A stretch of 63,930 nucleotides of DNA, counting the filler, from Kipferlia bialata (taxonomy: Eukaryota): assembly GCA_003568945.1 (NCBI GenBank). It is 4 parts of 4 records of this genome, joined end to end, with 100 filler letters (N's around TTAATTAATTAA, not from the genome) between each part and the next. Parts side by side here need not be neighbours in the genome. Positions count along the whole stretch, not along the records: positions 1 to 20,670 come from BDIP01000363.1; 3 more parts are not named here. The stretch is one strand, 5' to 3'. Shown one piece after another: positions 3,140 to 39,696 of this stretch. Below the pieces are notes generated by a model. The model did not search any database. It was not told the DNA's origin and saw only the letters and a program-made list of their open reading frames with translations. Position 1 is the first letter of the stretch. Each line of letters starts with the position of its first letter. The position numbers and the translations under genes were made by a program.

Positions 3140-3200
3140 GTGTCACTGTGACGCAACCATGCACCATATCTATTGGCATCCACACCCATGCCCCCCCCCC

Positions 3201-4718
3201 TCACTCGAACTGGGCCACCATCTGGAGCGCATCCACCGCCAGAGTGACCCCAGCCAGTATGTCACCCACATCCACCAGACCACTCTCAGTGACACTGTTG
3301 GTGATGTGGACGGGCACCTCCACCCTCACCCCGGTGGGGCACATGCACTCCCCTTCTCTCTCCCCCTTGCCTAGGTCCTCCCTCCACACCGTAGTGACAC
3401 ACTCCGAGCTAGCCACGCCATCCCCTGCCCCCACCCTCTGTGCTAGTGCTCTATTCAACTCATGGGAGGAGTGGGGGCCTACAGCCAGCAGGGCACCCCC
3501 TCCCATGGCACCTGAGCCTGTGCCTGGGGGTGATTAGGGGTGTTAGGAGGATATATGTGTTTGTATATACCTATCTGCACCCATGTGTCGTTGATGTCAC
3601 TCAGCGTGTACTCAATGTCTCGGTACCCAGCCCTCTCCATGTCTCCCTCTCTCTCCCGCCTCAGTGCTGTACGCATCGCACCTGGTGTAGGAACTGAGTT
3701 CAACACATGTAGTGTATTGACGTATGTGTGCCACGTACCTATGCTAGGGCCTGCCATGAATAGTACATTGACACTCGAGTGCAGCAGCTTCTCCCCGTCT
3801 GTCTCCACAGTGGTATCATCCACGGCATCCCTAGGGGGTGGGAACGAGAGGTCTTGATGGTATAGAGATAGATCGTGTAGAAACCCCACCTTCTCTGGAG
3901 GCAGGATGTGACAAGCAGCATTGCCACCAGAGACACCACGGCGGGGAGAGACCTTTGTGCCAGTAGCACTGCCCTGTTGTCTATGGAGTCCTCGTTGATG
4001 CGCTCCACAGTGCCTGGGTTAGTAAGCATAGTATAAAGGACATGTCTGTCGACCCCTGACCTGAGCCTAGAGACACCGGCGCCCCCACCCTGACCCCCAT
4101 ATCCTCCGAGTCCTGGTATGACAGCGACCCCACGTCCAGGGACAGACCCCCTCCCTCTGTGTCTCTGTACACCATGCCTGTCACCCATGTGCCTGTCACA
4201 CCTAGCAGATCGGCACTCACCCCAGTGGGTATGTGTCCATGGCCAGTGGCGTCTGATGGTACTGAGAGTCGCACGGCACCTGACCTAGGACACACATGCT
4301 ATGGGGTTATTGGAATTTTCTGTGGTAGTGTGGTAGTTGAGAGTCTTATAGAAGAAGGAGATATGTATGTGTCCAAACATACCGTGACCACTCCCCCCAC
4401 ATCCCCTCCCACCACTGCCAGTACCACTGTTTTGCCACCCCTAGACAGATACCCCTTCTCCCACCCCCCGCCATCCTCTCTCTCCTCATGTGACCACTCT
4501 CCACGGACCGGCAGCACCATCACGACCTACTCAGTCAGTGTCTAATAGATATCAGAGAGTAAGAGAATATGAGATTGTCCACCGCACCTTCCCCGACTGG
4601 TCTATCTTGACTCTGTTGGGTGCTGTGTCTGGGTCACTGTTGGCCAGGACGTCCCTAGCCATGTCGGCTACCACTGTAGTGCGGGTACTCTCGCAGACAC
4701 TGTTGCGAGGGGCTTTCT
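3201..4718 (-). CDS. M42 (TET/glutamyl aminopeptidase)-like protein, apparently degenerate; first exon unresolved
   Basis: Spliced exons give RVKIDQSGKVVMVL, KTVVLAVVGGDVGGVV, LDVGSLSYQDSEDMGVRVGAPV, SIDNRA, MGGGALLAVGP and VPVHITNSVTESGLVDVGDI, in the order of M42 motifs. TGA at 3203-3201. Confidence 0.55.
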
Positions 4719-5676
4719 CTGTGTTAGTGATAGAAGATCAGGACCTAGCAAACATCAGCATAGACACAGTGTAAGAGTAGCAATAGATTCCGGTATTGAA
4801 CTCACTCTCAGACTCTTAGTCTAGGTGAAGAGTATTCACTGAAGACTGCTCTGTCGACAAACAATATTCAGGTATCAGTGAGAGATGCTCGAGAGAATGT
4901 GAGTAGTGAAACTGTTCTGATTGTTATCCCTGTGAGTTTGACACTCAAACATGGAACTCTCAATGTGGCCTACCTGCGATGATACGCTGGAACCACTCTA
5001 GTATGCGATCACTGTCCTAGGGTTAGAGGCACTTGACATAGCCTATGTAAATGTCAGAATGATAACACATCTACCAGTGACTCTTGAGCCTCAAGTTGAG
5101 GTGCTTTAGTATAAGACCGGTTTGCAAACCATTCGACCATTCGTGTAGTTCCTAATTAGAGATATTGCATAAGTATATGTAGTTTTGCTTGAATATATGT
5201 AGCAGACAGTATACCAAGTACCTGTCCCATCATAGCTGTGCATATCTCGTCGAGGGATGTGATCACCATGTCTGGCTGTCCATTCTCCTCAGACATCTCC
5301 ACTCTGGGCTGAGACCCTGTGCCGCCCTGTAGCACACTGACCCCCCCTACACTGGTGTCTGGCAGTGGCCAGGGCTGGGTACCAGTCTGTATAGGAACAG
5401 GGGCAGAGGTGGACGTAGGGGGGAGGGAGGGGACGGGAGGAACCCCGGCAAGAGAGAGTCTCCGAGCCTTTGCTATCTCTTTCTATGTAAGTAGAAGGGA
5501 CTCCCACTGTCAATACTATAGGGTGTATATGTGGTAGGCAGACCAACTTGTTGTAGAGAGAGAGAGCATTTGCATTGTCCGTGCGAGAGCTGAACGTGCG
5601 ATAGATATCCTAACTTGTCACTATACAGTACCCAACACTCAACTGCACTGACACTACAGTTCCATCAGGAGGGTCT

Positions 5677-8600
5677 CTATTCAGCCTCCATCTCTCCCTC
5701 CTCATCCTCCTCATACTGTGTGACACTACTCAGCCACCCGTCGCCATATTGCTGGGCCCTGAGGGTAAAGGGTGGTACATGTCATACAACAAGAGAATAG
5801 ATATGGATATATATCCCACCTTGCCAGCAGCACATCGCTCAGCTGCTTGAATAAGGGTCCAAACGACGCAAACTTGGGTACTTGTGCTAAGGCCGTGAGG
5901 TGCTGGCGGTAGTGCTCAACCTGGTGGTCAGATACCAACTGGGACCAGAACGCAGAGGGTTCTACGCAAAAGTATGAGGTGCTCTCTGAACATACTTCTC
6001 AATGTAAAATGAAACATGTATAACACTAAACATATGCGAATGGCTACCTTCTTCGTCGCTGCATCCACCCTGAGAATGAATGCCTCGTCTCTCACACACC
6101 TGAGCTCCTGGGGTGAGACAGGCAGATACCTACACACACATACACGGCAGAGTGATATATATATATATATATATATGGACCACTTGCAAAGACGCTCCAC
6201 ATATGTACATGCACAACCCACCCCGTAGTCTCCTCCAATGACCAGTCTATAGAGGACAGAGGCGGCGTCGAAGCTGGCCTAGGGTGAGGGGGCAGTATGT
6301 CAGTTGTATATATAGGTACACATACCCTGACTAGCACTCTTGTGTCAGTCGTATAAATGTGTATAAATACACAGTCTACGAGAAACCTCACCTGGATTAA
6401 CCCCGCCCCCTTCTCCCCCTTGAGCTGTGCAATGAGAGACCCGGACCTCACGGAGTCACCACCCACGGAGGCAGCCTCTAGAGAGTGAGGATAGGTGGCA
6501 CACGGTAACAGTAGTCATACATACTCTAGTCCTCGTACTGTGTATACCATACACATACATGTATACATAGAGAGAGACACGTACCGAGTGCCGCCTGGCA
6601 TGCCGCAGGTGGTGCAGGCCACGTCATGTCCTGGCTGGCCTTGTCTACACTGTCCTGGGGCATGCCCTGCTGGGCCTTAAGGGCATGCAGGTGGCTGGGG
6701 TGAGTACATACACGACATATACATATATATTAAATATACATATATATATATTCATTATATATATTTGACGGACCAGAGATATGGAGAGTAAGAACTACAT
6801 GTCCTTCTGGTATGTAGGTGGCTGGGGTATATATATATATATATATATTTGACGGACTAAAGACATATAGAGTAAGAACGACACGCTCTGCTGGGTATGT
6901 AGGTGGCTGGGGTTAACACTACAGAGATAGAGAGAGTGCAGTGTATTATACATATCACAAGAGCTGGCTGGAGTGAGGCAGAGATGGACATAGTATTTAC
7001 AGGGAACGTCATACACCAACAATGTGATAACAGGTGGAGAGAAAAGAGACTATATGAAACACCCGTACCTCTTGATGAGCTCTGCCTGAGATGCCTGCCC
7101 CCCCTTCACCACCGGTGTCTGACGCCTGGGTATCCTGATGTCCATGGCAGGGGATGGGTGGGGCATGTCAAGGGGGGCAGAGTCTATGAGGCCACTGCTC
7201 TGCATCACTACGTCACCCAATAGATCAACACCCGCAGCCTCTCTCTCCCTCTCCCTCTCCCTCTCCTCCAGCATCTCTCTCTCGTGGGACCCGTCAATGT
7301 GGCTCTGCCTATCCACACCAGTCAGATGCTGGGGTTACGAGTAGTCTGAAGACACACCATTGACAGACTCGGTATCAATGTAACTCGCATACAATTACCA
7401 ACTGCATAATCCATATGAAAATAGTGATACAGGTATATTTCTGGTAGACTGAAAAGTAGACGTCTGTAGAACATGTACTGTCCCACCCACCTCCAGGACT
7501 ATGGCACTGTGCGTCATGAGTTGGGCCATGAGGAGCTTGGCACTGGGGGGTGAGGGCAGGATGGGGAATATATACATAGATGCACATACACACTATAAAC
7601 TCCATCTATGTACATACACATAACCTATACCTCTGTGTTGTGGATGAGACCCCAGACACGTCGGGGCCTACCCCATAGGGGGTGTGGCCTGGGGTCAGTG
7701 GGGACACGGGGCAGGTATACATAGAAATCAAAGTAGTATTATGTGTTGAGAGAGAGTATATATAGTCTCCGCCATGCACCTGGCGTGTATATCTGGTCCT
7801 TGGCGGTGTACAGTGGTGTCTCGAATATGTTCTCTGGCGTGTGTGTCACTGCCAGCCTTGATGATGCCTCCTCAGTATCCAGGGCATAGGTGTCATCCAT
7901 GTGCAACTTCCTGGAAGGGTAAGGCTATCGGTAGAGTATATGATATATGGTAATGCCTCTTCTGACCGAATCACAGTCCATGTGACACTACCTGAAGTCC
8001 TCTCTGAACACACTGCCCGTGTTGTACTCTGAGGCATGCATGATACGCTCATAGGCCTCAACAAGGGTGGCGGTGTTGCCAAGGGCATTGCTGCCTGGGG
8101 GGTAGGCATATAATCCACAGCACAGTTCCAGAGTACCGACTCCTAGGATACAGTTAGATAGTACACCTATGGTATATAGTACTCATACCTAGTCCGATGG
8201 CATTGGCGATGTTCTCTGCCTGGTTCTTACTCCTGCCCTTACCACCGTGGGTCCTAGGGGTGAGGGGGGTACAAGGGTGGACTCATATACAAGTATATAC
8301 ACACACACACACACCATGTCCCACCTGTCGTAGAATGACGCCACGTACAGTGCCCAGAACTGGGTGTCAGACAGAGGGGCACCCGTCTTCTGCACAAGTC
8401 TGGGATGAGAGAGAGAGAGAGAGAGAGAGAGGGAGAACATGAATGAAGCATACGATACGCACCTCTTGTACAGCTGCTTCACACTGGGTCTCTCCCCCAG
8501 CACCTGTTCTCTCAGTCCGTCAGGCACATACAGACGGTCCTCGGTCCTGACACGTCAGTGGGGTGGGTTCAAGTGTATACTATACGACGTCAATATATCA

Positions 8601-9229: not shown

Positions 9230-9252
9230 CCCTCCTCCCCTTCTTACCCCAG

Positions 9253-12200
9253 GAAATCAGCATGCGTGTCCCAGAGAGTGGGGTGGCCAAGATTGTGGCA
9301 GGGATCAGGGAGTGTCAGGTGTGTACTGTATTCACTACATGCTATATGCCATATGCTATATATACGCTGTATTCTGTGTACTATATACTGTATATATGCT
9401 TCTCTTTACTCTATGATCTCTACACTGTGTTGTCTAGGTTTCTCCAGTGGCAGATTAGGGAATGCCAGGTGTATGGGTACAATAATATGTAGTATGATCT
9501 CACTCATTTGTCGCGCTCTCTCTCTCTATCCCCCCCCCCTCTCACCCCAGATCCAGTACTATGCCATCAAGAAGGACTATGGCAACCAGACCCTGCCAGA
9601 CTCCATCTGGGAGGCAGGTATTAGACATCATATACACACATATATATATATATATATATACACATTGTATCATCTCTAATTGCACTGCTATAGGGTATAT
9701 AACCTGACCCTGCCAGACTCAATCTGGGAGCCGTATATATATACATTCTCTTCTCTCTCTAGTAATATAGTGTATGTATATCTCGTTATCTGACATCAGT
9801 GAGGCTCCACGAGGCCCGCATTGCCACACCATACAAACATAGTATTCATTTCTTTAGTATATATTCATTGTATATAGTATATATCTATATATATATTGTA
9901 TGTATGTCTCTTTAACTTTTATCTTATGGTCAGTGAGGCTCCACGAGGCCCGCATTGCCACGGCCCACAAGGAGAAGGTGGAGAGGCAGCAGAGGGAGGA
10001 GGTTAGTGTATATATGTATATATATATATATATAGTATATAGGGTGTATATATGGTATATTTATAGGTATTGCCACTGCCCACATGGAGAAGGTGGAGAG
10101 GCAGCAGAGAGAGGAGGTGAGGGAATAGTGTATATTAGGGATATTTATGTGGGTTACAGTACACGCTGTGAGTGCACACATATATATGTCTACTGTGTTT
10201 CACCCCAGAAGCTGAAGGCCGAGAGGGAGGAGGAGAGAGAGAGAGAGAGGCTCAGGGACCTCGAGATCAAGAGACAGGTACACAGTCACCATTAAGGCTT
10301 TTACTGATTAGAACGAGATATGTTCTCCGTGTACTCATGCCGAGCTAGGTCTCCCTCTCTCTCTCCCCACTTACCCCCCCCCCCAGGACAAGCTTGCGGC
10401 ATTCTCTCTCTCTCTCGCCGTATATGCACATATAGTTTTATGTGTGTGTGTATGTTTATACATACTTACCCCCAGGCCGAGCAGCTTGAGAGGCAGCGCA
10501 AGGAGGACGAGGCTAGGGCTATCAAGGTATGGTATAGCAGATGTGTGTATGTATGTATGTGTTCATATGTCTCTCTAAGTATGGCATGCAAATATATATA
10601 TGCGTGTATATTATACTATATCTAACTGTCAGATTGAGCTTGCCAAGAGGCAGGACCGGGAGATACTAAATAGTTTATGCATATATATATATGTGTGTGT
10701 GTGAGTGTATGGGTTTTGTGTACCTTCCTCTAACTATCAGATTGAGCTTGCCAAGAGGCAGGACCGGGAGATACTAAGTATTATATGCATATGTGTGTTT
10801 ATATATATATGTTCTTGCGTATATAGGTACACCCTAACTATCAGATTGAGCTGGCCAAGAGGCAGGATAGGGAGAGACATATTGATGAATACATTAGATA
10901 CTATATTGTGTATGCAAATATATATGAATATATGTTACTGAGAGTGTATATACTATATCTAACCCCTAGATTGAGCTGGCTAAGAGGCAGGACCGGGAGA
11001 GACTAAATAGTATATGTATGTATATATATGTATATATATATACACCCTAACTATCAGATTGAGCTAGCCAAGAGGCAGGACCGGGAGAGACTAAATAGTT
11101 TATGCATATATATATATATATATGTGTATGAGTGTATAGGTTTTGTATACTTCTCTAACATCCAGATTGAGCTGGCTAAGAGACAGGACAGGGAGAGACT
11201 ACATACTTTGTGCATATATATAGATACATATATATGTATGTATATGTATGAGTGTATATATATATACTATATCTAACCCCCAGATTGAGCTTGCCAAGAG
11301 GCAGGACCGGGAGAGACATATATAATTATATGTATATTTATGTGTATAGATTTTGTATACTTCCTCTAACATCCAGATTGAGCTTGCCAAGAGGCAGGAG
11401 AAGGAGAGACATATTGATGCCAATATGTGTATATGTATATATATGATACTGAGAGTGTATATACTATCTAACCACCAGATTGAGCTTGCCAAGAGGCAGG
11501 AGAAGGAGAGACATTATGATGAATGTATATATTAGATACTCTATTATATATGCAAATATGAATATAAGTATCTGCATGTATATACTACCTCTAACTATCA
11601 GATTGAGCTAGCCAAGAGGCAGGAGAAGGAGAGGAGGGAGAGAGAGATGGGGAGGCAGGGCAGGGACGGGAGGCAGGACGGTACGCATATATATATTATC
11701 TATAGTGTAGTTTTCTATTCATATATATGTATGTGTGTTTGTGTTCTGATATCAGGCCGTAACCGCGAGGGTGGCAGGACAGTGGAGGCACTATAATATA
11801 ATAATTTTTGTATTATGCCATTATGTCATTTTGTTATGTTAAGTAGTGTGTATATACTACCAGTATGTACATAGTTGACTTACCCCTAGGCCGTAACCGG
11901 GTATATATATATATATATATACTACTTACCCTTAGGCCGTAACCGCGAGGGTGGCAGGACAGTGGAGGCCGAGATGAAGAAGTTCATCACTCCCAGGTAG
12001 AACAGACTATAGATAGACAGAATATAGACTACATATAGATCTATGTGTGTGTATATCTTCTCTCTGCCCCTACATCCTTATTGACATATTATTATACATA
12101 TTATTATACATATTAAGAAGTTCAGCGGACCCAGGTAGGGCTAGGGGTGGTGGTGTAAGTTTGGCGCATATATGAGAGAGAGTGTGAATAACTGTCATAT

Positions 12201-12653
12201 ATTGGTCTCTCTTTCCTTCTCTCTCTCTCTCTTTCTCTCTCTCTTCCAACCCCCAGGCCCGATCTCCGTGCCCTACCCACCATGGATGACATAGTCCCGG
12301 CAAGGTACATGCATATATATGTATATATATAATATGTATATACTTATGTATAGTCATTAAGGGATATATTGTACATAGTATACCGGTGCCCTTCCCACCA
12401 TGGATGACATAGTCCCGGCAAGGTATGTAGTCATGAATACATATATCCATTTATATATATATGCATCAATAGAGCACATATTTGTATCTATATACCCACT
12501 ATGGATGACATAGTGGTGACATAGTCCCGGCCCGGCCCGGCAAGGTATATATATATATGTATATATGTATGTATATATATTGTTATATATATGCATTAAG
12601 GGATATATAGCATATAGGATACTGATCCAAACCATGGACGACATAGTCCCAGC

Positions 12654-12688
<35 letters not shown>

Positions 12689-13277
12689 CAATAGGTTGTA
12701 TAAGAGTACATAGTTTGTTGAATCCCAACTATGGATGACATAGTCCCGGCAAGGTACATACATATATATATGTATATATGTATTAATATATATACGAATC
12801 GATAGAGCACCTTATATGTGTATATATACAAGTATATATATATTGATCTCCGTGCCCACCATGGATGACATAGTCCCGGCAAGGTATGTGTGTGTATGTA
12901 TATATATGAGTATGTTTGTAATAATCAATAGAGCACCTTGTATGGGTATATTTTCCAAGAGAGCGTAGTTGTATATATGGTATACTGATCCCAACCCATG
13001 GATGAAGTGCCAGCAAGGTATATATATATATGTGTGTATGTACATATGTATGTATAGTTATATATATTCATTAAGGGATATATAGCATATAGTATACCTG
13101 TGCCCTCCCAACCATGGATGACATTGTCCCGGCAAAGTGTGTGTGTGTGTATTCATGGATATGTATGTGATACATATATAGATATCCATATGTGTGTGTA
13201 TTGGGGGATACTTGTATTATTATACTTGTGGGAATACCCGGGATCATTGTGGTGTGTGCATAGGTAATCGTGTTAGA

Positions 13278-13309
<32 letters not shown>

Positions 13310-16300
13310 TTCTTACCCCCCTAGGAATGACGTTGGTCTCCACGCCCTCCTCATCCAGCGAGTCAATGTCAGATACAACTCGGCAGTCAAGCTGGCACTC
13401 CACTTCAGCCGGTACGCGCATATATTTATATATAGTATGAAGGATATACTATTGTGTATGAATGTATATATACTGTATTTAATATATATGTTTTAAATGA
13501 ACTCGCCAGTCAAGCTGGCCCTGCACTTTAGCCGGTACGCGTAAGTTTCGTATATGACTTCGAGTATTTACATTCCTGAACTTGTCACGCGACATCTCTC
13601 TCACTTCTAGCTATGGTGATGTTGCCTCCATCCTTGTCTCTCTCTCTCTCTCTCTCTCCCCCCCCCTCTCTCTCTCACCTCTAGCTATGGCGATGTTGCC
13701 TCCATCCTGACCTGTCACAAGACACAGAGGGCAGTGGTCCAGTTCACTCAGGTGTGTATATGTATATATATATATGGGTGTATATGTATTATAGATAGAT
13801 AGATAGATAGATATACATACCATGAATGCCACAGCCATCCAGCACTCATACATATATATATTATATATGTATATGTAGAGTATAAGTATTGACTATAGAC
13901 TATATATGAATGTATACTCACCCCTAGGCCACCCACTGCACTGCCGCCATCCAGCACCCTGCCCCACCCCTCATTCCCCCACACGCACTGCTGACACACG
14001 CCAGAGGGTATGTATACATATATATTATATTTTGTACATTGTATGTATACCTGTGGGATCTCTCCCTCCCTCACCCTAGCAATGCCGATGTCGAGGCCTC
14101 TGTGGCAGAGCACTTCCAGGGCAGAAAGAGAGCCAGGGAGGAGGATGAGGTATGTGTGTGTGTGTATCTCCTATACTGCAATATGCTATTATATAGCAAT
14201 CTTTGTGGTGTAGGTAAGGTTGGAGATGTGCCCAACTCTCTCTCTCTCTCTCTCTCTCTACACCCTTTATTCACCCCAGGATGAGTCTGGGGAGTCTGTC
14301 CCCGGCTCCTCCCCCCCTGTCGCACAGATCGACACGGCAAAGCTCAGGCAGATTGACAAGTACGTGTATCACTATTTTTATATATATATATACATTTATG
14401 TATTAGTGAATGTATATATATATGTGTGTATTACCGTGTTGGCCAGATTGACACGGCAAAGCTCAGGCAGATTGACAAGTACGTATTATGATTATGTTCA
14501 TTTGTTATATATTTGTATATTTCACCCCCAGCTGTGACCATGAGTGTATATTTCTCTACTATTCTTATTGTTCATTCTTTTACTTTTCTCAATGTATACC
14601 TCACCCCCAGCACTGTGACCCAGACAACATGAATCCATTCATATATATATGCACATATGTCATATATATATGTTGCTTTTGCATATGTGTATCTATCTCA
14701 CCCCCAGCACCGTGACCCAGCTGTCCACCATGCAGACACGGCTCACAAAGGTATATCCTAATATATATACATAGATACATACCTTCATGTATATATAGGT
14801 ATATATAGGTATATATATATAGATATATGTATATGGTATATATACACAGCACTGTGACCCAGCTGTCCACCATGCAGACACGGCTCACAAAGGTACATAT
14901 ATAATGTGTATAGATACATACACACATGTATATAGTATATATATACACATGTCCATATGTTATATTACTGTATACATATATAGTGTAGTTGTACTTCTGC
15001 TGTCCACCATGCAGACACGGCTCACTAAGGTATGGATACTTTGATATAAATGAATATATGGGAGTATGTTTTACTTATTAGGTGTTCAAGTCATATATAT
15101 GTAGTAGTGTCTGTGTGTCTATATACACCTCATATCAGGACCGTGGCACCATGGTCAACACCCTGAGCCTCTCTCTCTCTCTCTCTCCCCCTCTTTCTCT
15201 CTCTCTCTCTCACCATATATATATATATATTCCTCACCCCAGGACCGTGGCACCATGGTCAACACCCTGAGTGGTGTGCAGGACGAGGCACAGGCAGAGA
15301 AGGTATATATGTATGTATATGGATATATTTACATATGAGTATATAATTGACTTATATTTATGTTTGTGTATGTGTTTACATTATATACTCTTAGTGGTGT
15401 GCAGGACGAGGCACAGGCAGAGAAGGTATGTACATATATATATATATATACAGTGTATATATATATATATAGGCACATGTATATGCATATATTGGGATGT
15501 ATACACTGAGTGGGGTGCAGGACGAGGCACAGGCAGAGAAGGTTAGTGTGTCTGTATATATATGTATGTATATATATAATCTTGCCAGTATGGACATGTC
15601 TAACCCCAGATCCGTGCCGGTGTGGCCAAGGTGGACAGTATATATATATATGTATATACCTCTATACATATAGCTATAGCTATAGACTCATATATATATA
15701 TGTATGTACATACAGCTAACCCCAGATCCGTGCCGGTGTGGCCAAGGTGGACAGGTCACTGGCAGTCATTGCAGCACAGCTCATCAAGGTATGGGTAGAG
15801 ACATACAGTATATAAATATATGTGTGATATATATGTAATGGTGTGTTAGCTTTTGTGTAGAAGACTTGGTCTCTGGCAGTCATTGCAGCACAGCTCATCA
15901 AGGTACAGTGAATACATGTAGAATAGCTGTGAATGTGTATATGTGTGATTTGATTGTTACGTACCCTCTGACCCTATCCTTCCCTCACCCCAGCTCACCA
16001 CTGCCCGTAACACCATGATTGCTGCGGCATCCACGGTCAGGTACATGGAATATGTACTAAATGTAGTGTATATATATATACAGACAGGGACATATGTATG
16101 AGTATACCTTCATAGATGGATATGTGGGTATATGCAGCATCCACAGTCAGGTAAATGGCATCAGTATTGCATCATCTTTACGTTCCAGGACATATGATTT
16201 GAGTGGCTATTATACTTACATAAGTGTCTCTCCCCTTACCCCTAGGCGCCCCCCCACCGTCAAGAGGGTACCTGTCGACAGCTCCAGACTGCACTACTAC

Positions 16301-17670
16301 ACCCTGGCACAGTACCCACAGGTAGATATAGTGTAGATGTGTATAGGTACTATATATAGATAGTGTAGAGTATAGATAGTATATTTTATAGAGAATTTAT
16401 AGTATATCGGCACTACTACACCCTGGCACCGTACCCACAGGTTTGGGTATATCTATAGTATATAGTGTAACAATCAGTATATGTCTATGTATATTTGTAT
16501 ATGCTACTAACCCCCAGTCCTGGCTCAACAACCCAGAGGCAGTGTATGTTTATTTAGAGTATCTGCTGTTTCTCAAATATATTAGTATAATGTATAGGTA
16601 GTATATATATTAGAGTCTATGTGTATAATTGTCCCTCACCCCAGTCCTGGCTCAACAACCCAGAGGCAGTGGCACACCACTTCGGAAAGGTATGTGTATA
16701 TAATGTAATACGCTATTGTATATATGTATATTTCAGAATTCCTCTCTCTTTGTATCTCTCTCTTCCCGTCTCCACTGTCCCTTCTCTCTCTCTCTGCTCC
16801 CAGCTGACATTCTCTCTCTCTCTATATATATATATGTATGTATTCGTGTACTCACTCTCAGGGCGGTGACCTTCTGTCTGAGGGCAACGGCAGCATCCAC
16901 CTCGGCGAGGGGTCCAAGGTTGGGGAGTATATGTATACTACCTATCCGTTGGATATGGTATCTCTCTCTCTCTTTCTCTTTCTCTCTTTGTGGGTGTATG
17001 TATATATATATATATATTCATATATTCATATATCCCTCACCTCTAGTCCCTAGTGACCCACGTCGGGTATGGCCCCCAGCTGGAGTCAGGCACCCTGCCC
17101 ACCCTCTACGTCAGATTCAAGGATAAGGTATGGGATAGTGCACACGTATATGTATTTACTATACCGTTAGTAAATACTAGAATTATTCGAGAGAGTGAAT
17201 GAACATTAGTCTATATTGATCATCAGTCTCTCTGACACTCTCCTTCTCCCTGCCATGTAGATTGTCTCTCTCTCTCTCTGTCTCTAACCCCCAGACCTCC
17301 TTCCTGCAGTGCTCTGAGCAGGGCCATCCCTCATCCACTGCAGAGGGAATCAGACTAGGTACAGAGTATATAGAGTGTTAACAGTACTGTAACTGTAAAT
17401 GAAACGGACAGTATCTCGTTCCTACCCAATATATAATACACTATAATACACTATTCTCTTGTACACCATTCATATATATGTTTATATGTCTAACACCCAG
17501 TATACTATGCCGTGCGTGGTCCCCTCAACGAGGCCATTGCCGTAACAGCTGTATGCAAGGCAGAGACTGAGGCAGAGGCAGAGGGAGAGGGAGAGGGAGA
17601 GGGAGAGCACGAGGCTGAGGAGGCCGAGGCCCCTATCCAGTTCACTAACGTGGTCAACGAGACGGCTTAG
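9253..17670 (+). CDS. RBM26/27-like RRM and coiled-coil RNA-binding protein, about 23 exons; 5' end missing
   Basis: Phase-consistent small exons with a charged coiled coil (KLKAEREEERERERLRDLEIKRQ). RRM1-like RYNSAVKLALHFSR|YGDVASILTCHKTQRAVVQFTQ resembles RBM26 'LNEHFSRFG'; a second RRM-like segment is EAVAHHFGK. TAG at 17668-17670. Confidence 0.55.
10622..11630 (+). repeat. 10 tandem copies (about 110-bp period) of branch point + AG + exon start (ctaacNNNcag|ATTGAGCTxGCCAAGAGGCAGGA); only the last copy (exon 11602-11680) is the full exon
   Basis: Copies seen near 10630, 10740, 10843, 10969, 11057, 11165, 11283, 11376, 11478 and 11601, separated by diverged TA-rich spacers. Confidence 0.95.
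12257..13140 (+). repeat. True exon 12257-12304 followed by 7 diverged copies of exon end + donor (CCATGGATGACATAGTCCCGGCAAG|gta)
   Basis: Echoes near 12385, 12496, 12631, 12724, 12843, 12988 and 13100. Confidence 0.95.
14522..15030 (+). repeat. Duplicated 43-nt exon (14708-14750 and 14850-14892) with partial echoes on both sides
   Basis: Both copies read CACxGTGACCCAGCTGTCCACCATGCAGACACGGCTCACAAAG flanked by AG and GT. Acceptor echoes near 14527 and 14607; donor echo near 14998. Confidence 0.9.
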
Positions 17671-20670: not shown

Positions 20671-20770
20671 NNNNNNNNNNNNNNNNNNNNNNNNNNNNNN
20701 NNNNNNNNNNNNNNTTAATTAATTAANNNNNNNNNNNNNNNNNNNNNNNNNNNNNNNNNNNNNNNNNNNN
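20671..20770. other. Artificial contig linker (N44-TTAATTAATTAA-N44)
   Basis: Six-frame stop spacer of identical 100-nt design at three places in the window. Confidence 0.98.
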
Positions 20771-20891
20771 GTGGGGTTGTGGGGGGGGGGGGGGGGGGGG
20801 GGTATGATTTACAAAGCAGTTCATTCACTTCTGCTAACTACACTCACATACATGCAGAGAGAGAGACAAAGAGAGAGAGGCACACACGCAC

Positions 20892-21613: not shown

Positions 21614-24600
21614 GCACTCCCCCAGCCACATAGAGTGTACTTCCGATGGGTCACACCCGTCATGTTGGCAGGTATAGGGTATATCCTATACCAATCAGTT
21701 CATGTATATAGTAGACTACTAATAGTAGTCATTCGTTAGTGTGTAACATTACTATTGTTACATTAGTATTCAGATGGGTCACACCCGTCATGTTGGCAGG
21801 TATTGTGTATATCCTATCTACACTGTAGATAGGATAATATCCTTGTAGATTCTACACCAATCAGTTCATGTATAGTAGTATTTCGTTAGTATTTGCCCAT
21901 CATGCTGGCAGGTGGTTTGTACACAATGGTATATAGAAATGAGACTCAACTAGAATGAACTCACCTTCAGTTGTGGGCTCCCTTATTGGCACGGCAGTGT
22001 ACAGATACAACACACAGGTGTGAGAGTCGTATTATCAATCACCATGTGCATATGAGTCATGTGAAATGACACCTAACACCAGCACTGGCCCTATACATCA
22101 TTCAAGTGGACACAGCGGTACATAAGGTAGGAGCTTGGAGTGTGGTTCGGGACTCCATTATATGTTCCTTTAGACACTAACCTCCAGTGACCTAGGCAAC
22201 CCTGGCTTTGCCCAGGACTGGCACATATTCACAACGGCAATGGTAGGTACGAAAACACACCCGCTACTGTCTCGCTACCATGAGTTAAGACTCACCATAC
22301 TGTATACACATACTCATTGGCATTTCTTCTCCTTCAGTATATGGACTCTCTGGGTCAGTCCGCCCGATACCCTCCTAAATTAGAGATTCTTACACTCTCG
22401 CTGCCCATCTCACCTCAGTCTGCGGTCTCTTTCTGCTCTGGCTGCCTGGGTCCCTGGCAGATGGTATCCACATCTATATAGTAGAGAGTCTCTGTACTCT
22501 TTGTAGACATATAGTATATACTATATAGTATAGTATAGAATAGAGTGTATAGTTCATCCAGTTGACTCATGCAGGTATCCACACCCTATTAGACCACAAG
22601 CACCCTGAGGACCGCAAGCTGAGTCTAGCCCAACGCATACACCGCCGAATAGTAGGGGTGGAGGTGTTACTCCTACGCATCGGGGCAGTATGCCTGGCCA
22701 TGATAGGAAAGTGTAGTTATAACATACAATCCATATACATGTGTATAGTTGAGATATGTCCCCACACATGTAGTATAGTATAGGTAGTTATGTGTATGCT
22801 AACCCCAGGGATAGTTAACAATGCGAGCACCCCCTTATTGACCTTCCACACTCACACCTTCACAGTGCTGGGCCATACCTTCAGTCTCAAGGGCTGGACC
22901 ATTGACAACCAGTACCTGCACATCAACATGCTGGTGTACTTTGTGGGGGCATACACATTCATCATCATGTAAGTGTATGCAATATGCATAATACAATTGA
23001 ATATTATAGAACATATTTCTGTTATATACAATAATTCCTCATTGCTGGTTGGCGTACTTTGTGGGGACATACACACTCATCATCATGTATGTATATGGTA
23101 GCTTACACCCGTCCTACATCATTATGTATCCGATACCCTGCTACTCATGTGTACAAGTGTACATATTGTGTGTCTCTGATTGCAACTTTGAGTCAAAGTT
23201 TGACGCCTTAACAGTATTTAGTTAACACCCTCACCCCCATGTACCACTGGCTGGGTGTGGCACTGGTCAGACTCATGTATACATGTGTATATACAGATAC
23301 TTATATATCTCTATACATTGCATATAGTATACCTCTACACTCTTACACTCATGTACCACTGGCTGGGTCTGGCACTGGTCAGACTCATGTGGCACAGAAG
23401 GGGGCTGGGAGCAGATGTGCAACCAGAGCAGCCATCAATCACAACACCAGTACAGGTCTGACTGGATACACTACAATACTATTGTGCTTTTACAGTGCTT
23501 CTATGTCTTCATTGTACTTTGTTACTATTCCTGTCGATATCATAGTGAGTAAAATGTACTCATATACTCAGTATATAATTCACTTAACCCTCAGGTCTCT
23601 GATGTTGCTGACACTGTGGATGCAAGTGACACTGCTGCCTATCCGATTGCACCTGCAGCAGTCGCGACAGTGACACAGCAGGATGCAGTCAGCCCCAGTA
23701 GTGGGTGTCCATCTAACCCAGCAGTGCCTACAAAGGAGGCATGGTCACTTGCATTTGTACTATATACACATGGATGCTATTCTCACGCTAGGTTACCACT
23801 ATCCCTCCTACAAGAACCACCCCCTCTCCCTTAGTTCTCTGCTCTGCTCTCATAGTGTCCCTAATAATGGAGTGGGTCCGTGTAGTCTAATAGCAGGTTG
23901 TTGTTGTACCTCCTACCCTCTCCCCCAGGGCTGTGAGGCAGCAGAGGACAGAGACCCTCATCCTGTTCTTCTTTGGAGTTGTGGTGCAGAACCTACTGCT
24001 GATTGTGTGTCTGGACTACACCCTGCTGTGGCTGTGGAAGGCACCGGAGTCATGTAGGTAAAGCCTTACATTACTAGTGTACACACATACAAATACCGTC
24101 AAGCATCATACTATCATGTCTACATATTTTGTATGTAGAACAGAGACTACGCTATATATATGTGTGTGGATTATCGCCTGACACCCAGCCACCTCTTTGT
24201 GCAGACCACCCTGTGCCCTGAGTACCCTCTGCTGGGACTGCCAGTCTTTGAGTGGGTATTGATAGGTGCGTATATACAGTATATTGTAAAACTGTATATA
24301 GACAATATATACAATCTATAGTAGGTGGTTGGGTAATATGAAGTGAGTACCCTCTGCTGGGACTGCCAGTCTTTGAGTGGGTGCTGAATCAGCAGCTGAT
24401 AGGTACTAGATGATAGATATAATATATATGTTATATACTATAGGTACTAGATGATAGTTATTATATATATGATATATATATACTATAGGTACTAGATGAT
24501 AGATATAATATATATGTTATACATATACTATAGTGATAGGTATATATACATACATAGGCTCCCAGTCTGTCCAGATTGTGGCTCACTTCCAGTCTGTCTC

Positions 24601-24709: not shown

Positions 24710-25246
24710 AGAGAGGTTTAAACACCGGACAACAGATACACATAGGAGAGTCTCCTATGGAAACCACCATCCAGCACAGGGGTAATAAGTTATTACCGTA
24801 ATAACCAGAATAGAGATTCAAAGATGAAGAGCCCCACAAACACAATTCATTTGCAATATGAAATATTCATACTATGTATATATCGTATACGTATGCCTGT
24901 GGTGATGTGTCCCAGATTTGTAGGCGAGCCTTCCGACTCAGATATTGAAAGTATATCCGACAATGTGTGTTTCGAGCTACACTGATATATCAGTGTTCAA
25001 GTTCGACTATTGCTATTCCAGGCGTAACCACGGGTTGATCACACGGCTTCCTGGCCAATGCGTTTCTATGACCAGGATTCAGTAGAGTTCCTCCGTCTCC
25101 CTTCCTTGCCTAGATCAATTTCGCTTCCTGTTGGATCTGGTTCCTACACCCCTAAGACCAAACCGTATGGAACGTCTTTTTGATTGATCAATCAGTGTGA
25201 GGGCCATATATGTGTCAAGTCTCTCTTTTTGAACAGACATCAGTAG

Positions 25247-25859
25247 ATGATAGCTGTTGTTGCCTTGTGTCTCCTGTGTCTGCTGGTACCCACACTAGCC
25301 CAGGTGAGTGGGTTGTATTGAGAGAGAGAGAGATAGCAGGAGCTTGATCATGTTGTATCGTGTGTGTATTTACATTTTCATATCATAATATTTCTGCAGA
25401 TTGCTATGAATACATGCCCCCTTACCACCTATACAAGTGCATGCTCTGATTATTATGATATACATCCTTGCAATCTGGTATACCTTGCAATTACACCCAG
25501 TATGTGATGAGAGTCCGGAATAATTGCAATCTGAACAATCAGTGTCAACCAGTGAAAATGAATCTCTCTCTCTCTTCTTCCCCCCATCCTCTAGAAGTGA
25601 ATATGTATGCTACAGTATGCATATGGAATACTACTACTAGTACCTCACCCCAATGAACCTGCTAACCATGGACATATACTATACATGGGATTACATGCAT
25701 GGAGAGAGATTGATGTGCAATGTATCATACTTGTATTGTATGTGCATTGTATTCTACATATGCCTCACCCCAGGACCCCTGTGCCACATGCACCCTGATA
25801 GCAGACTCTCTGCAGGTGAGGACATCGTCTCTCACTCTCTCTCTCTCTCTCTCTACGTA

Positions 25860-25909
<50 letters not shown>

Positions 25910-26062
25910 ATTCATCCCAGGCCCAATGTAAACAGGCTGCCTGCCTTGGTTCAGGTGAGTCACAACTGGTTCTAGACACTCCTTGCCCTATAGTAGTGAT
26001 TAAGTTGTCTCTCTCGCTTACTCCCCCCCCCCCCCCTTCCTCTTTCTCACCTAGCTTGCTGA
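25247..26062 (+). CDS. Small secreted Cys-rich protein (or the 5' part of another gene joined at a poly-C tract)
   Basis: Signal-peptide exon MIAVVALCLLCLLVPTLAQ|gtgagt, then DPCATCTLIADSLQ|AQCKQAACLGS|AC TGA. Exons after the poly-C (25861-25909) can alternatively be read in frame with the giant gene downstream. Confidence 0.4.
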
Positions 26063-29000: not shown

Positions 29001-32000
29001 GCACATACAGTGAGCAGGTATGGGATACTATGTATTTGTATTCAAGTACAAGCCCCTCTTTCCCCTCCACGTCCTAACATCAAGGTAGTTGTCGGCAGGG
29101 ACGCTGTTGGTACTGAGCTGCTGGTCCCCTCTGAGACACTCTCACACACTGGAACTACCATGGTGTCAGGCACCATGGATGCTGCATACACATACTCTAG
29201 ACCTGAGCACACCAGTGGCCCTCAGGAGACCAAGTTCATTGGAATGGGGACATCCAGTACCACGGACACAGGTACCCAATATTGCATATACACTTGCGCA
29301 TACTATATACATTAGGGCATTACCACTGTAGTTGTATCTGACATCAGGTGGAGATGTAATTGTGTCTGGTGGCAGTGCCACTTCTGGCTATGGAGATGTC
29401 ATTCTGGGCACCTCCAAGACTGACTCACCCAACCCTGCATACACTAGGGCTCTAGGGGATGCCTGGGTGGAGGGTAGCAATCTCTACCTCGGTCCCAGTG
29501 TCGATCTGGCCGACTGTCCCACCCACGAGGCATTCACTATCACCCGTCCCTCCTCTACCTGTGCCACCCCTGAAGCCCTCAGGATAGTGGGGTCTCAGGG
29601 TGACACTGCAGCTGGGTCCGTTGTGGTGGCAGGAGGAGAGTCTCTGAGTGGCGATGGAGGAGACCTGACTCTGGTGGGTGGTGCAGGGGTCACAGCCGGT
29701 GGGTCCGTCATCATTGGTGACGCCGACACTGCTAGTGTGGCCATTGGACCTAGCTCCTGTGTCAAACTGGACGTGGTGGACCTGGCTGACCCATCTCTCA
29801 CCACATTCACTGTGGACCTCCAGCAGCCAGTCTCCATTCCAACAGGGGGACTCGACGTTTCTCCAAGGTGGGTTCAGTTCCCTTCACTAGAGTTTTTTGT
29901 CATTGATATCGGTTTCTAAGTGGGTATTGCTGTTCTCACCCTCAGTGTGGTTGTAGACACTGTGACTGCACACGATGATGGCACCACCTCTACCCTCACT
30001 CTCGACTCAGGCACTGCCCCTTCCAGTGGTGTTGTCCTAGGTGCCACCAGTGACACTATCGATATAGGACAGGCCAACGTGGTGGGAGGCACCCAGAAGA
30101 CCACTACGGTGTACAGTGACTTTGGAGTGCTTGATGCCGACGGTCTTGACCTCATTCGCACCGGTGCCAACTCCATTGCAATGACCAATGCGGATATGAC
30201 ACTGGCATCCCCTGGCAGTGTCTCTATATCCTCCACAGTCACCACACCCACCACTGGATCTTCCTCCATTACCCTCAACGGAGATACCCTCTCTCTGTCT
30301 AGCACTGGTGGTGATGTGACGCTCTCCTCTGGCCACGTGGTGGCTGGTCTCACTGTGGGTGCCACCGCTGACGTCAATACCCTAGCCACAAACACCGTCA
30401 CAAGTAGCACAGACAGCAACATGAGCATGAACGCACGCTCTGGGCGCACCCTTGCCGTGGGAGGGTCCTCTGGATACGTTGACCTGGGCAGGACTGGTGT
30501 GGACACAGATGTACTCGGCAACCTGAAAGTGGCAGGTACCATGGATGTGACTGGGGATGTGACCTTTGGGGCCACCCTCGACGTCACAGGGGACATATAC
30601 GTCACTGGAGACACGTGGATCAATGGCAACACCCTCACTCTCTCCAAGGCCCTTCCTGACACTGCCACCTGTGACGCCTCAGAGGCTGTATTCACTATCA
30701 CACGCCCTGCCTCAGACTGCACTGCCCCCAAGGAGCTCATACTGCTGGGTGCCCCCGGTGTCACCCATGCCGGGTCAGTGGTCGTGCAGGGAGGCACTGC
30801 TAGTGGGAACATTGCTGGTGATGTGACTATCCTGGGTGGTGACGGGTACTCAACCGACGGCACTGTGTATGTTGGATCCTCCCACACATCCGCAGTGGTT
30901 ATTGGACCCACCGACTATGTCAAGATGGACATCACCACTGGCACTCTGTCCACATCCCTGCCCAACCCTATTGAGGTTGGAAGTGGTGGTCTGCAGGTGG
31001 CGGGCTCCTTCGTGTCTGACTCCCTCTACTCCTACCCTGTTGCCGGTGTGTCAGGCGAGGCCACCCTCACCCTAGATGCCGGTATTGCCAATACCAGGCT
31101 GGTCAAGCTCGGTAGGACATCGGACACAGTGGAGATCGGCAAGGCTGACATGGCGACCACCGTCTACAGCTACGCATCTCTCCTCGACTCCAGTGGCAAC
31201 CCCCTCATTGCAACTACCGCCACAGGTGTAGAGATATCCAACTCTGACATCACTCTGGACTCCCCTGGGACCGTTTCCCTTGCCTCCTCTGCCGCAGGTG
31301 GCGCATCCTCCATATCAATGTCAGGAGACACCCTGACACTCACCAGCGGGGGTAGTCATGTGGAGCTGTCCTCTGCGTATGTACCTGGGTCCCTGTCTGT
31401 CGCTGGCACCGCCTCCCTGACACGTATTGAGACTCCAGTCATATCTAGCTCTGCATCTGACGTGTTTGTCAATGCCCCTTCTGCACACACTGTGAAGCTA
31501 GCCAATCTGACCGGTGACCTGCACCTTGGCCGTACCTCTCAGACGACTGTCGTCTCTGGAGGCCTCTCTGTGGCCGAGGCCACCCAGCTGCTGTCCACCC
31601 TCACTGTAGCTGGGACCGTGTCTGCTACCGGTACAGTCCATGCCAACAGCCTGGACGCACTCACCTCTGGCCCCCTCACCCTGGGCAGTGACGCTCTTTC
31701 TACCTCAGTCGTCGTTGACAACACCCTCACCGTGACTGGCTCTGTGAACACCGCCACTGTCCAGAACAGTGGTGGCGCCCTCACTCTCAGTGGCTCTGAG
31801 GTGGCTATAGATGGCCCTCTCAAGGTGTCCCACAACGCTGCTGACGTCACCTTGGCCTACCTGACTGGCACCAGTGCCTGGGAGCTAGACACCCAGGGAG
31901 GGGGTGTCAAGGTCTCTGCCTCTGCTGCCCTCATCGACCTCGATGCTGACACTGATACAGTTGAGGTGGCCTCTCCCATTGGCACTCTTCTGTCCCTCAC

Positions 32001-38000: not shown

Positions 38001-39696
38001 CGCTCTCAAGGTCGCGGCCATCTCGAACGACAGTGGCATAGTGATCACAACTGGGTCTAGTGCTGGACTCAACTTCTCGATTGGTACTAACCAGTGGCTG
38101 AGCCTGACTTCAAGCAGTCTCACCTGGACTTTGGGGTACTCGAGTGGTGATTCCACCTGGAAGATGCAGTTTGACCATCAGAAGATGGCTATTCAGGAGG
38201 TTCTCAACGCCACCATTGACCTTGACAACGACACCAACATCTTCACCGTGAGCACCAACGGTGCCTCCAGGCTAGCCGTGACCAAGGCATATGCCGAGTT
38301 CAACACTGACGCTGTCACCTTCAACACATCGTCTGGTGTCACGATGAGCGATCTGACGTTGGCCTCCCTCACGGCTGCCTCCACGGACATCACGCTCAAC
38401 GATGACCTGGTTGTATCTGATGGATTCACAATCAATGGCGGAGGACTCGTAAACTTCGCTCTGGATGACACGGGTTCCGGTAATACCCAGACCGTGACGT
38501 TCAAGTCTACCAGTGACACCATATTCCTGAAGTCGACTAGACCCATCAGCCTTGATACCACGGACGTGTTGGTGACTGGTAATCTCGCCGTCAACTCTGG
38601 AGTGCTCTATGCTGCCACAATCACTGGGGCTGCCGCAGGTCCCCTGACGATTGGTGCCACGACAACGTCCCTCACTTCTGGCACCATAGAGTTGGGAGAG
38701 GATGCAGCTAGGCTGCTGACCTTGACCACCTCCTCGACAGTGGCTCTGGCCTCGAGTGACGATCTCACCCTTAGTGCTACCGGAGCAATCGTAATCAATG
38801 CTGATTCCGGAAATGATGTGAGTCTTACTGTTGGGGGATCAACAGTTGCCTCCTTTGCGACTGGTTCCATCGGGATCACTGGTGCCCTCTCCGTAAGTGC
38901 TACCATCACCGCCAGTGGTATAATTAAGGGTGGATCCCTGAAGAGTGATAGCATCGTCGAGGACACGACCGCTGGTATTACCATGACGGGAACTCAGCTG
39001 TCTCTTGACTCGGATTCGGTGTACCTTGGAACGGCCTCTACGTCTAAGTTGTGGGTTGACAGTTCCAGTTCCACTGCACTCTCGGTGGTTTCCAACGCCT
39101 CCTCAACCCTGACCATCTCCTCTCTAGGGTCTCTGATTCTGGGTATTGGTGGCGCCCCCACCGCTATCGTGACTGTCGATTCTGACGGAGTGGATATTGC
39201 CGGAGATATGTCTGCGACAGGTACCCTCAGCGCAGCATCCCTCACTACCCTATCAACAGGGAGCACTAAGGCAGTATCTATGAAGCGTGTAGAGTTTGGC
39301 ATGTACTATACTGGGGCTACCGCCACTTCTACTGTTCGCCTGAGTTATGACGACGCCGGAACAGCAAGACATCTAATGCATGTTACTACTAACAAGGTGG
39401 CGATGATGGGATCCTACACATGCTTCCCCGGAGGCGGTGGTGCCTTCACTGCCACACCTGTGCATGGTTTAGTGGATGACCCTGATTTGTCACTTGGCGC
39501 GAGTGCATTCTTCCTCAATCCGGTAACAGGGTATTCGGAGCTGCAAGTCACCGTCGCTAATCTTGATGGGGGGTGTGCCGGAACTGGCGAGGGCTACCTA
39601 TACGTGACAGCTTCAATATGCGTCTTCGACACTGCTACGGCCGCCGGAGTTGTGACTGGTGTTGATACCTACGAGCTTCTGGTGAGCTCTGCTTGA
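26094..39696 (+). CDS. Giant (about 4,200 aa, estimated) type II membrane-anchored, G/S/T/V/D-rich repetitive beta-fibre/adhesin-like protein
   Basis: MDSPFAPQ..KDK|VSRRTLLAALLSAFLMFGIA|WGVWLIFYF gives a single N-terminal TM helix. About 14 introns lie in 26154-29945, then one exon 29946-39696 of about 3,250 codons. Internal repeats are present. The start may extend upstream. Confidence 0.85.

What the first reader, a model, noticed from the sequence alone, without database searches (positions are those of the whole stretch)
9253..17670. Polarised intronic 'exon echoes': stacks of decoy splice sites around true exons
Seen: in most multi-exon genes here (RBM26-like, p62-like, DRAM-like, Kelch, HAD, GCP-like, BUD31), introns carry diverged 20-50-nt copies of the neighbouring exon terminus together with its splice site. 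The polarity is consistent. Acceptor + exon-start copies lie upstream of the real exon and exon-end + donor copies lie downstream, so the full-length exon uses the last acceptor and the first donor. Spacers are TA/TG-microsatellite-rich and differ between copies. Inference: repeated tandem duplication across splice junctions drives intron expansion, and the spliceosome must reject many perfect-looking sites. That points to strict exon definition, or alternatively to stepwise (recursive) splicing or large-scale unproductive splicing with NMD. I know of no description of this as a genome-wide architecture.
Basis: partly seen in the sequence, partly recalled or inferred. Interest (0 to 1): 0.85.

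Follow-up and report, generated by a model that had tools for sequence, protein, structure and literature searches.

The report
Introns crowded with copied exon ends
In this single-celled eukaryote about one intron in three carries a roughly 110-base stutter that copies the start or end of the neighbouring exon with its splice signal; the RNA skips the copies that could be checked, and their mostly silent-codon differences suggest they were likely picked up from a different allele of the same gene.

Summary
Confirmed. 41 of 124 modelled introns (9 of 14 genes) carry 83 echoes; 77 keep GT/AG and 43 score at least as well as the real site. Spliced contigs skip every echo checked, including a stack of nine acceptors; three DNA contigs hold real site plus echo at full depth. 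Polarity is real (54 vs 2 intron hits) but follows from head-to-tail duplication. The unit is known: amphioxus 'mirages' and the human F7 intron-7 repeat; this scan also found single-gene cases in animals. Not found in my searches: this density, a narrow period (median 112 nt, IQR 99-122), exon parts capped at 48 nt, and a coding signature. Echo versus real exon gives pN/pS 0.25 (95% interval 0.16-0.37), whereas a neutral copy of the same molecule cannot fall below about 0.5; wrong frames give 1.2 and 2.8. Best reading (inferred): misaligned exchange between diverged alleles, tolerated because splicing picks sites across the exon. Recursive splicing is not supported. The organism is probably Kipferlia bialata or close kin. 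One window only; no second strain, no raw RNA reads.

The parts
9253..17670 (+). 23-exon gene R (5'-incomplete): 9253-9318, 9551-9617, 9934-10001, 10209-10277, 10476-10526, 11602-11680, 11936-11996, 12257-12304, 13325-13411, 13685-13751, 13928-14007, 14080-14149, 14280-14359, 14708-14750, 15243-15302, 15726-15788, 15994-16040, 16246-16321, 16645-16689, 16862-16918, 17047-17127, 17295-17358, 17501-17670
   Evidence: open frame, all GT-AG; spliced contigs and length accounting
9701..9827 (+). donor echo 9701-9734 (GT lost) and acceptor echo 9800-9827 (28/28 identical; acceptor scores 12.2 vs 8.2 for the real one, yet skipped)
   Evidence: RNA joint 9617>9934
10069..10116 (+). donor echo of exon 9934-10001, 48 nt, GT kept
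   Evidence: RNA piece ends at 10001 and length accounting
10633..11510 (+). stack of 9 acceptor echoes (10633, 10741, 10845, 10970, 11058, 11166, 11284, 11377, 11479; 31-32 nt of exon each), all scoring >= the real acceptor at 11601
   Evidence: RNA joint 10526>11602
11756..12115 (+). acceptor echo 11756-11789; short acceptor echo near 11890 and diverged donor echo 12097-12115 (these two by eye, below the score cut)
   Evidence: sequence; DNA contig 11940-12203
12386..13136 (+). stack of 7 anchored donor echoes of exon 12257-12304 (6 keep GT)
   Evidence: DNA contig 13057-13268
13500..13634 (+). donor echo 13500-13534 and acceptor echo 13611-13634 enclosing a 76-nt complete inner GT-AG 'mini-intron'
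   Evidence: DNA contig 13322-13624 holds real exon and echo; RNA skips both
14444..14632 (+). donor echo 14444-14478; short acceptor echoes near 14532 and 14612 (by eye)
   Evidence: DNA contig 14455-14741
14850..15167 (+). whole-exon copy 14850-14892 (no branch-point motif in front), donor echo 14999-15029, acceptor echo 15139-15167
   Evidence: RNA loose end at 14751 continues with exon 15243
15387..16544 (+). donor echoes 15387-15425, 15503-15541, 15868-15902, 16133-16150, 16410-16440; acceptor echoes 15610-15638, 16518-16544
   Evidence: RNA only indirectly (contig length)
43687..50684 (-). 23-exon Kelch-type gene K, 12 of 22 introns with echoes (donor stacks 47088-47435, 46230-46510, 45883-46014)
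50963..60550 (+). Kelch paralogue fragment K2 (1 of 2), HAD gene (2 of 8), GCP-like gene (8 of 11; 6-donor stack 56905-57489)
62380..63026 (-). BUD31-like gene, donor echo 62531-62509

Best explanation
The echoes are genuine, spliced-out genomic duplications of about 110 bases across exon-intron junctions that likely arise, or are likely refreshed, by out-of-register exchange between strongly diverged alleles of the same gene. Shown: each unit is 12-48 nt of exon plus its splice site plus an AT-rich spacer; the mRNA uses the site next to the full exon; echoes differ from the real exon like one working allele from another (synonymous sites, splice dinucleotides kept, intron flank drifted). Inferred: alleles match only at the short exons, so unequal crossover or aborted gene conversion puts a piece of allele B's working junction next to allele A's; only pieces that lack the second splice site, carry under about 50 nt of exon and sit behind an intron-like spacer survive selection. 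Inferred: the spliceosome picks the pair of sites that bounds an unbroken GC-rich, TA-poor exon (exon definition helped by base composition), which silences the echoes.
For: pN/pS echo vs real exon 0.25 over 49 junction stacks, bootstrap 0.16-0.37, P(>=0.5)=0.0002; fourfold sites differ 20%, zero-fold 4.5%. Wrong frames 1.18 and 2.83; 36 single echoes 0.27 (0.15-0.44), 13 arrays 0.19; ratio under 0.32 for each base and in 5 of 6 genes examined. Differences among sibling echoes: 28 synonymous, 15 not. No drift towards AT (36 vs 36 synonymous, 24 vs 19 non-synonymous). Identity drops from about 0.9 in the exon part to 0.53-0.70 at intron +3..+6 while GT is kept at 0.93-0.97. One Kelch echo has the exon-end state of the paralogue K2, not of its own exon. 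RNA skips nine acceptors that score >= the real one; using an echo gives a stop or frameshift in 78 of 83 cases; 60 nt on the exon side separates real from echo sites by GC (AUC 0.98) and 0 of 110 internal exons hold a 30-nt window of <=30% GC, against 46 of 51 spacers.
Against: No second allele was seen: no other letters in either run over 9240-14770 (contigs drop variants and the cut was 95% identity), and no close relative in metagenomes (best 67% aa). It needs synonymous diversity of roughly 10-15%, unknown for this organism. Gene E gives pN/pS 1.1 on few changes. Only 6 of 51 spacers align to their expected partner better than all control introns, so head-to-tail homology is mostly inferred. 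The narrow period is not explained mechanistically. The GC/TA separation follows partly from echoes being truncated and does not show causation. One window, hand-built models, RNA contigs for one gene only.
Confidence: 0.5

Rival explanations
1. Ordinary mirage-type minisatellites: same-molecule tandem duplication (slippage, flap misprocessing or unequal sister exchange), then neutral decay; unusually frequent because exons and introns are both about 100 nt, so most surviving duplications span a junction.
For: Explains polarity, order (donor echoes before acceptor echoes in 10 of 10 introns with both) and silence; matches amphioxus mirages of 60-160 bp (PMC3087553, PMC3902484). Duplications lying wholly in fast-drifting intron DNA would be invisible, so the lack of them proves no junction targeting.
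Against: Predicts pN/pS >= 0.5 (echo drifts at all sites, real exon at synonymous sites only; gene conversion within one allele does not lower this, my own derivation). Observed 0.25, upper bound 0.37. Predicts AT-ward decay, not seen, and similar divergence on both sides of the junction, not seen.
Confidence: 0.22
2. Echoes are under present selection: they are used in minor isoforms or act as decoy exons that tune intron retention, so coding frame and splice sites are kept.
For: pN/pS 0.25 and 77 of 83 splice dinucleotides kept; many echoes can be chained in frame as microexons by a permissive parser; the two RNA contigs break at the acceptor of the 1020-nt intron, which may mark a retained form (not resolved).
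Against: RNA contigs match the real exon with 0 other letters over the listed pieces and have exactly the echo-free length; 78 of 83 direct uses give stop or frameshift; a decoy role would not track codon position.
Confidence: 0.13
3. Assembly artefact: alternative haplotypes or reads stitched in tandem, which would also give synonymous differences and a read-length-like period.
For: Synonymous signature, period near 110 nt, exon parts of k-mer size; fragmented short-read-type contigs with N gaps, one beside an echo (57821-57862); interiors of the large stacks are not bridged by X1.
Against: DNA contigs of X1 at 11940-12203, 13322-13624 and 14455-14741 each hold real site and echo without differences, at depth 419-440 against 343 and 386 for two echo-free contigs; X1 holds 0.91 of sampled words. 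Side-by-side haplotigs would put the acceptor echo before the donor echo; the order is the reverse in 10 of 10. X1 may be the source sample, so it checks the assembler, not the library.
Confidence: 0.08
4. Stepwise (recursive or nested) splicing removes the stacks unit by unit.
For: Ten introns contain a complete inner GT-AG segment of 65-223 nt whose prior removal would leave the final mRNA unchanged.
Against: No regenerated sites: 5 of 22 acceptor-echo exons start with GT, no enrichment; 0 of 29 donor-echo exons end in branch point + YAG. The nine-acceptor stack starts ATT.
Confidence: 0.05

Closest known systems
'Mirages' of amphioxus (Adh3, troponin C, globins BflGb6/BflGb9, PGBD5); PMC3087553 and PMC3902484, passages read
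   Same: Tandem duplications of exon-intron boundaries, both 5' and 3', units of 10-160 bp, many keep AG/GT, no disturbance of the mRNA.
   Different: Reported for a few loci in an animal; here 41 of 124 introns in a protist, period tightly near 112 nt, 36 of 49 analysed stacks single copies, spacers barely alignable, and a synonymous signature that the passages read do not mention.
Human F7 intron-7 37-bp VNTR; PMC1557585, abstract and Discussion read
   Same: Silent but functional donor pseudo-sites downstream; the most upstream donor wins even against stronger ones.
   Different: One locus, donors only, identical units. Here also acceptor stacks, where the last full branch point + AG is used, which a 5'-to-3' scan from the donor would not choose.
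Intron gain by tandem duplication of an AG/GT proto-splice site (Rogers model, seen second-hand in PMC3087553)
   Same: Intragenic tandem duplication that leaves the protein unchanged.
   Different: Here no new intron is made; an existing intron is lengthened, and no internal AG/GT is needed.
Decoy exons in erythroblast intron retention (PMC6097662, search listing only) and recursive splicing (recalled)
   Same: Unused intronic splice sites that could engage the spliceosome.
   Different: No evidence here of regulated retention; no regenerated splice sites.
Inter-allelic conversion at human minisatellites, and AU-rich intron definition in plants (both recalled, not from a call)
   Same: Repeat units transferred between alleles; splice sites chosen at AT/GC transitions.
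   Different: Not described, to my recall, for exon-junction units or for a metamonad.

Membership tests
Mirage repeats | Direct tandem copies spanning an exon-intron boundary | tested here: met
   83 echoes with exon part and splice site; flank identity above background at +3..+12 and -4..-10
Mirage repeats | Both donor and acceptor boundaries duplicated, splice signals often kept | tested here: met
   48 of 51 GT, 29 of 32 AG
Mirage repeats | Normal mRNA unaffected | tested here: met
   one gene, contigs only
Mirage repeats | Units homogeneous along their length (81-100% in BflGb6) by concerted evolution | tested here: inconclusive
   exon part 92% identical but spacers 68% vs 62% for control introns; 6 of 51 above all controls
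Mirage repeats | Copy number differs between haplotypes or cells | not testable with these tools
   one sample only; no close relative
Recursive splicing | Splicing to the intronic site regenerates a splice site (AG/GT) | tested here: not met
   5 of 22 vs 17 of 102, p=0.54; 0 of 29 for the reverse case
Recursive splicing | Intermediates or lariats at the intronic sites | not testable with these tools
   only contigs served
Rogers-type intron gain | Duplicated AG/GT used as new donor and acceptor, creating a new intron | tested here: not met
   RNA uses the original outer sites and the real exon's bases
Decoy exons | Decoy sites promote regulated intron retention | not testable with these tools
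   no raw RNA reads, no perturbation
Neutral same-molecule duplicate | pN/pS against the real exon at least about 0.5 | tested here: not met
   0.25, interval 0.16-0.37

The most novel reading that the evidence does not exclude
A genome-wide by-product of recombination in a lineage reported to lack Rad51A and NHEJ and to rely on Dmc1 (PMC8516963): repair between hyper-diverged alleles pairs only at short exon islands, misfires about 110 nt out of register, and keeps depositing working splice junctions of other alleles into a third of all introns, so that introns hold an archive of past alleles and a reduced spliceosome enforces exon definition against tens of thousands of perfect decoys.
Probability: 0.25. 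Interest if true: 0.85.

Novelty: new variant of a known kind. Interest (0 to 1): 0.62.

Why it matters
If the window is typical, the genome holds thousands of natural competition experiments between identical or stronger splice sites in an organism with short introns and, if it is K. bialata, only 87 of 174 searched spliceosomal proteins (PMC6679479). That makes exon definition in a minimal spliceosome directly testable. The synonymous signature would be indirect evidence for recombination between very different alleles, hence sex or parasex and high diversity, read from a single genome. It also gives a route to intron growth without transposons (36% of intron bases here) and a warning for gene prediction, since echoes parse as in-frame microexons.

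Tried and rejected
No whole genome is held, so no genome-wide count. No listed holder is on record as RNA; X2 is a guess, though its contigs are spliced at GT-AG. Contigs were laid only on 9240-14770; exons beyond 14750 rest on one loose end and a contig length. Bins without cover prove nothing. RPL11 searches gave only 62-68% relatives and at most 67% in metagenomes: no allele or sister species. A permissive gene parser included echoes as microexons and was replaced by hand curation. Fixed-length mechanism: exon part and spacer are not anti-correlated (rho -0.11, p=0.44), so no support for a constant total length. Junction targeting: almost all 75-180-nt repeats are echo-linked but visibility is biased, so not counted as evidence. 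Programmed DNA deletion between the copies (ciliate-like) rejected: the RNA carries the real exon's bases and DNA contigs carry echoes at full depth. Mutation hot spots at third positions rejected: 85 transversions vs 71 transitions, effect in all four bases. PMC3890296 (passages) gave nothing on inter-allelic transfer. Spliced proteins were not run against family libraries, so gene names stay unverified. No supplements were opened; those of the amphioxus papers may hold alignments that bear on the synonymous signature.
Full report
Setting. The window is four contigs of an intron-rich eukaryote joined by spacers, 47.9% GC. No whole genome is held. The only named relatives of the single-exon ORF 42237-43355 are two Kipferlia bialata proteins at 34% and 24% identity, and RPL11 has no relative above 68% among the 120 listed of 5458 hits. 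The organism is therefore probably K. bialata or close kin; this is inference. Introns have a branch point fused to the acceptor (CTNAC, 2-3 nt, YAG in 103 of 124), similar to the fused motif described for Giardia (PMC10711314, passages).

The observation. I built 14 gene models with 124 introns; all read open, 122 introns are GT-AG, one GC-AG, one GT-AT. The region 3150-5700, the 5' part of the gene at 25230-26050 and single-exon genes were left out. Median internal exon 76.5 nt; echo-free introns median 107 nt. Aligning exon ends to flanking introns gave 97 hits at a score reached by 8 of 1448 cross-gene controls. After dropping 14 (12 not anchored at the site, 2 beside an N gap) there are 83 echoes in 41 of 124 introns and 9 of 14 genes. 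48 of 51 donor echoes keep GT, 29 of 32 acceptor echoes keep AG, and 43 of 83 score at least as well as the real site on matrices trained on the real sites. Right-polarity hits occur in 32 + 22 introns, wrong-polarity in 2 + 0. Echo units are 36% of intron bases.

Is it real DNA, and what does the RNA do? Two runs of one sample hold the stretch, both as contigs; they were laid on 9240-14770. DNA contigs 11940-12203, 13322-13624 and 14455-14741 each carry a real site and an echo with no differences, at depth 419-440 against 343 and 386 for two echo-free contigs; 13057-13268 bridges a spacer-to-echo join. The interiors of the large stacks are not bridged, and X1 may be the source sample. Spliced contigs of X2 join 9318>9551, 9617>9934, 10526>11602 and 14007>14080. 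Unlaid gaps equal the model's exon lengths exactly (118, 138 and 65 letters), and the second contig's length puts its end in a GAGGGA repeat of the last exon, as expected with no echo included up to exon 22 (indirect). So the main mRNA skips nine acceptors that all score at least as high as the real one, and skips an echo with a better branch point at 9799. Contigs drop rare forms, so minor use is untested.

Anatomy. The period is narrow: median 112 nt, quartiles 99-121.5, 83 spacings. No echo carries more than 48 nt of exon although 42 of 51 stacks belong to exons of 60 nt or more. Spacers next to the real site are 42-146 nt with one exception of 23 and average 28% GC. In 10 of 10 introns with both kinds, donor echoes precede acceptor echoes. 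Polarity needs no special cause: in a head-to-tail duplication across an acceptor only the last copy runs on into the whole exon, and across a donor only the first copy is preceded by it.

The unexpected result. Echoes differ from the real exon as working alleles differ from each other. Of 156 distinct substitutions 91 are synonymous and 95 at third positions. Counting each junction once (49 of 51 stacks; one dropped for uncertain frame, gapped echoes left out), pS is 0.186 and pN 0.046, ratio 0.25, bootstrap 0.16-0.37. A neutral copy of the same molecule should give at least 0.5, because the echo drifts at all sites and the real exon only at synonymous ones; conversion between the two copies on one allele does not lower this (my derivation). 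Controls: wrong frames 1.18 and 2.83; single echoes 0.27 (0.15-0.44); arrays 0.19; each base under 0.32; no AT-ward drift; gene E is the exception at 1.1 on about 8 changes. Sibling echoes differ by 28 synonymous and 15 other changes. Identity falls at the junction from about 0.9 to 0.53-0.70 at intron +3..+6 while GT stays at 0.93-0.97, so the echo's splice site looks as if it was working until recently while its intron flank drifted. One Kelch echo shares its exon end with the paralogue K2 rather than with its own exon. Against: only 6 of 51 spacers align better than all control introns, and no second allele was seen.

How it most likely works. Origin (inferred, 0.5): alleles differ strongly in their microsatellite-rich introns and match only at short exons; unequal crossover or aborted conversion places a piece of another allele's working junction beside the resident one, and later exchanges enlarge or refresh the stack. 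Selection (inferred) removes pieces that include the second splice site or too much exon; the one whole-exon copy at 14850-14892 lacks a branch-point motif and is skipped. Silence (shown for one gene, mechanism inferred): direct use would give a stop or frameshift in 78 of 83 cases; the chosen pair bounds the shortest, unbroken GC-rich exon. No internal exon (0 of 110) holds a 30-nt window of 30% GC or less, against 46 of 51 spacers, and exon-side GC over 60 nt separates real from echo sites with AUC 0.98. This is exon definition or a composition-based equivalent; an intron-defining spliceosome would pick the inner sites. Recursive splicing lacks regenerated sites. A possible link to repair: fornicates are reported to lack NHEJ and Rad51A and to keep two Dmc1 genes (PMC8516963, section 8 and passages), and Dmc1 stabilises mismatched joints (PMC6719624, abstract only). 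This link is a hypothesis.

What is known. Earlier notes of this scan pointed to 'mirages' and to F7, which I then read. Amphioxus mirages are tandem duplications of 5' or 3' exon-intron boundaries with units of 10-160 bp that keep splice signals and do not disturb the mRNA (PMC3087553, PMC3902484; passages). The F7 intron-7 repeat shows silent yet functional donor copies with the first one winning (PMC1557585; abstract and Discussion). So the unit and its silence are known, and the scan has met single-gene cases in annelid, sea-urchin and shark-like genomes. The K. bialata genome paper reports 124,912 GT-AG introns and, in the passages and the methods section read, says nothing of such repeats (PMC5874029); 87 of 174 spliceosomal proteins were found in it (PMC6679479, passages). 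Searches and look-ups found no genome-scale count, no report in a protist and no synonymous signature; the library omits most subscription papers, and no supplements were opened. Plant AU-rich intron definition and inter-allelic minisatellite conversion are recalled, not from a call.

Verdict. Real, more than chance, a new variant of a known kind. Interest 0.62.

Noticed in passing
window 22969-23352 (+): The only frame-keeping intron in the DRAM-like gene is GT...AT, and its acceptor echo near 23240 also ends CAT, so the non-canonical end is in both copies.
   Followed up: partly
window 48254 (-): Kelch gene exon seems to use a GC donor while its echo 115 nt further on has a stronger GT donor; no RNA check.
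   Followed up: partly
window 50963-51443 (+): Three exons of a paralogous Kelch N-terminus in inverted orientation beside the Kelch gene, followed by a poly-C/G run and the HAD gene; possible misjoin.
   Followed up: partly
window 29946-39696 (+): A single exon of about 9.7 kb encoding a Thr/Ser/Val/Gly-rich repetitive-looking surface-type protein; its gene has no echoes in 14 short introns.
   Followed up: no
window 22464-22583 (+): An intron whose first nine bases repeat the first nine of the next exon, as expected for intron gain by duplication of a proto-splice site; short match, may be chance.
   Followed up: no
window 20671-20771, 41440-41539, 62184-62283; 57821-57862: Contig spacers; an N gap sits inside a donor echo of the GCP-like gene.
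   Followed up: partly
window 60492-60690 (+): Last modelled GCP-like exon has an uncertain frame and a downstream copy of its end; left out of the codon counts.
   Followed up: partly
window 24396-24510, 55995-56070, 56120-56190: Short-period (30-47 nt) repeats that also start at splice sites, a second, smaller size class.
   Followed up: no
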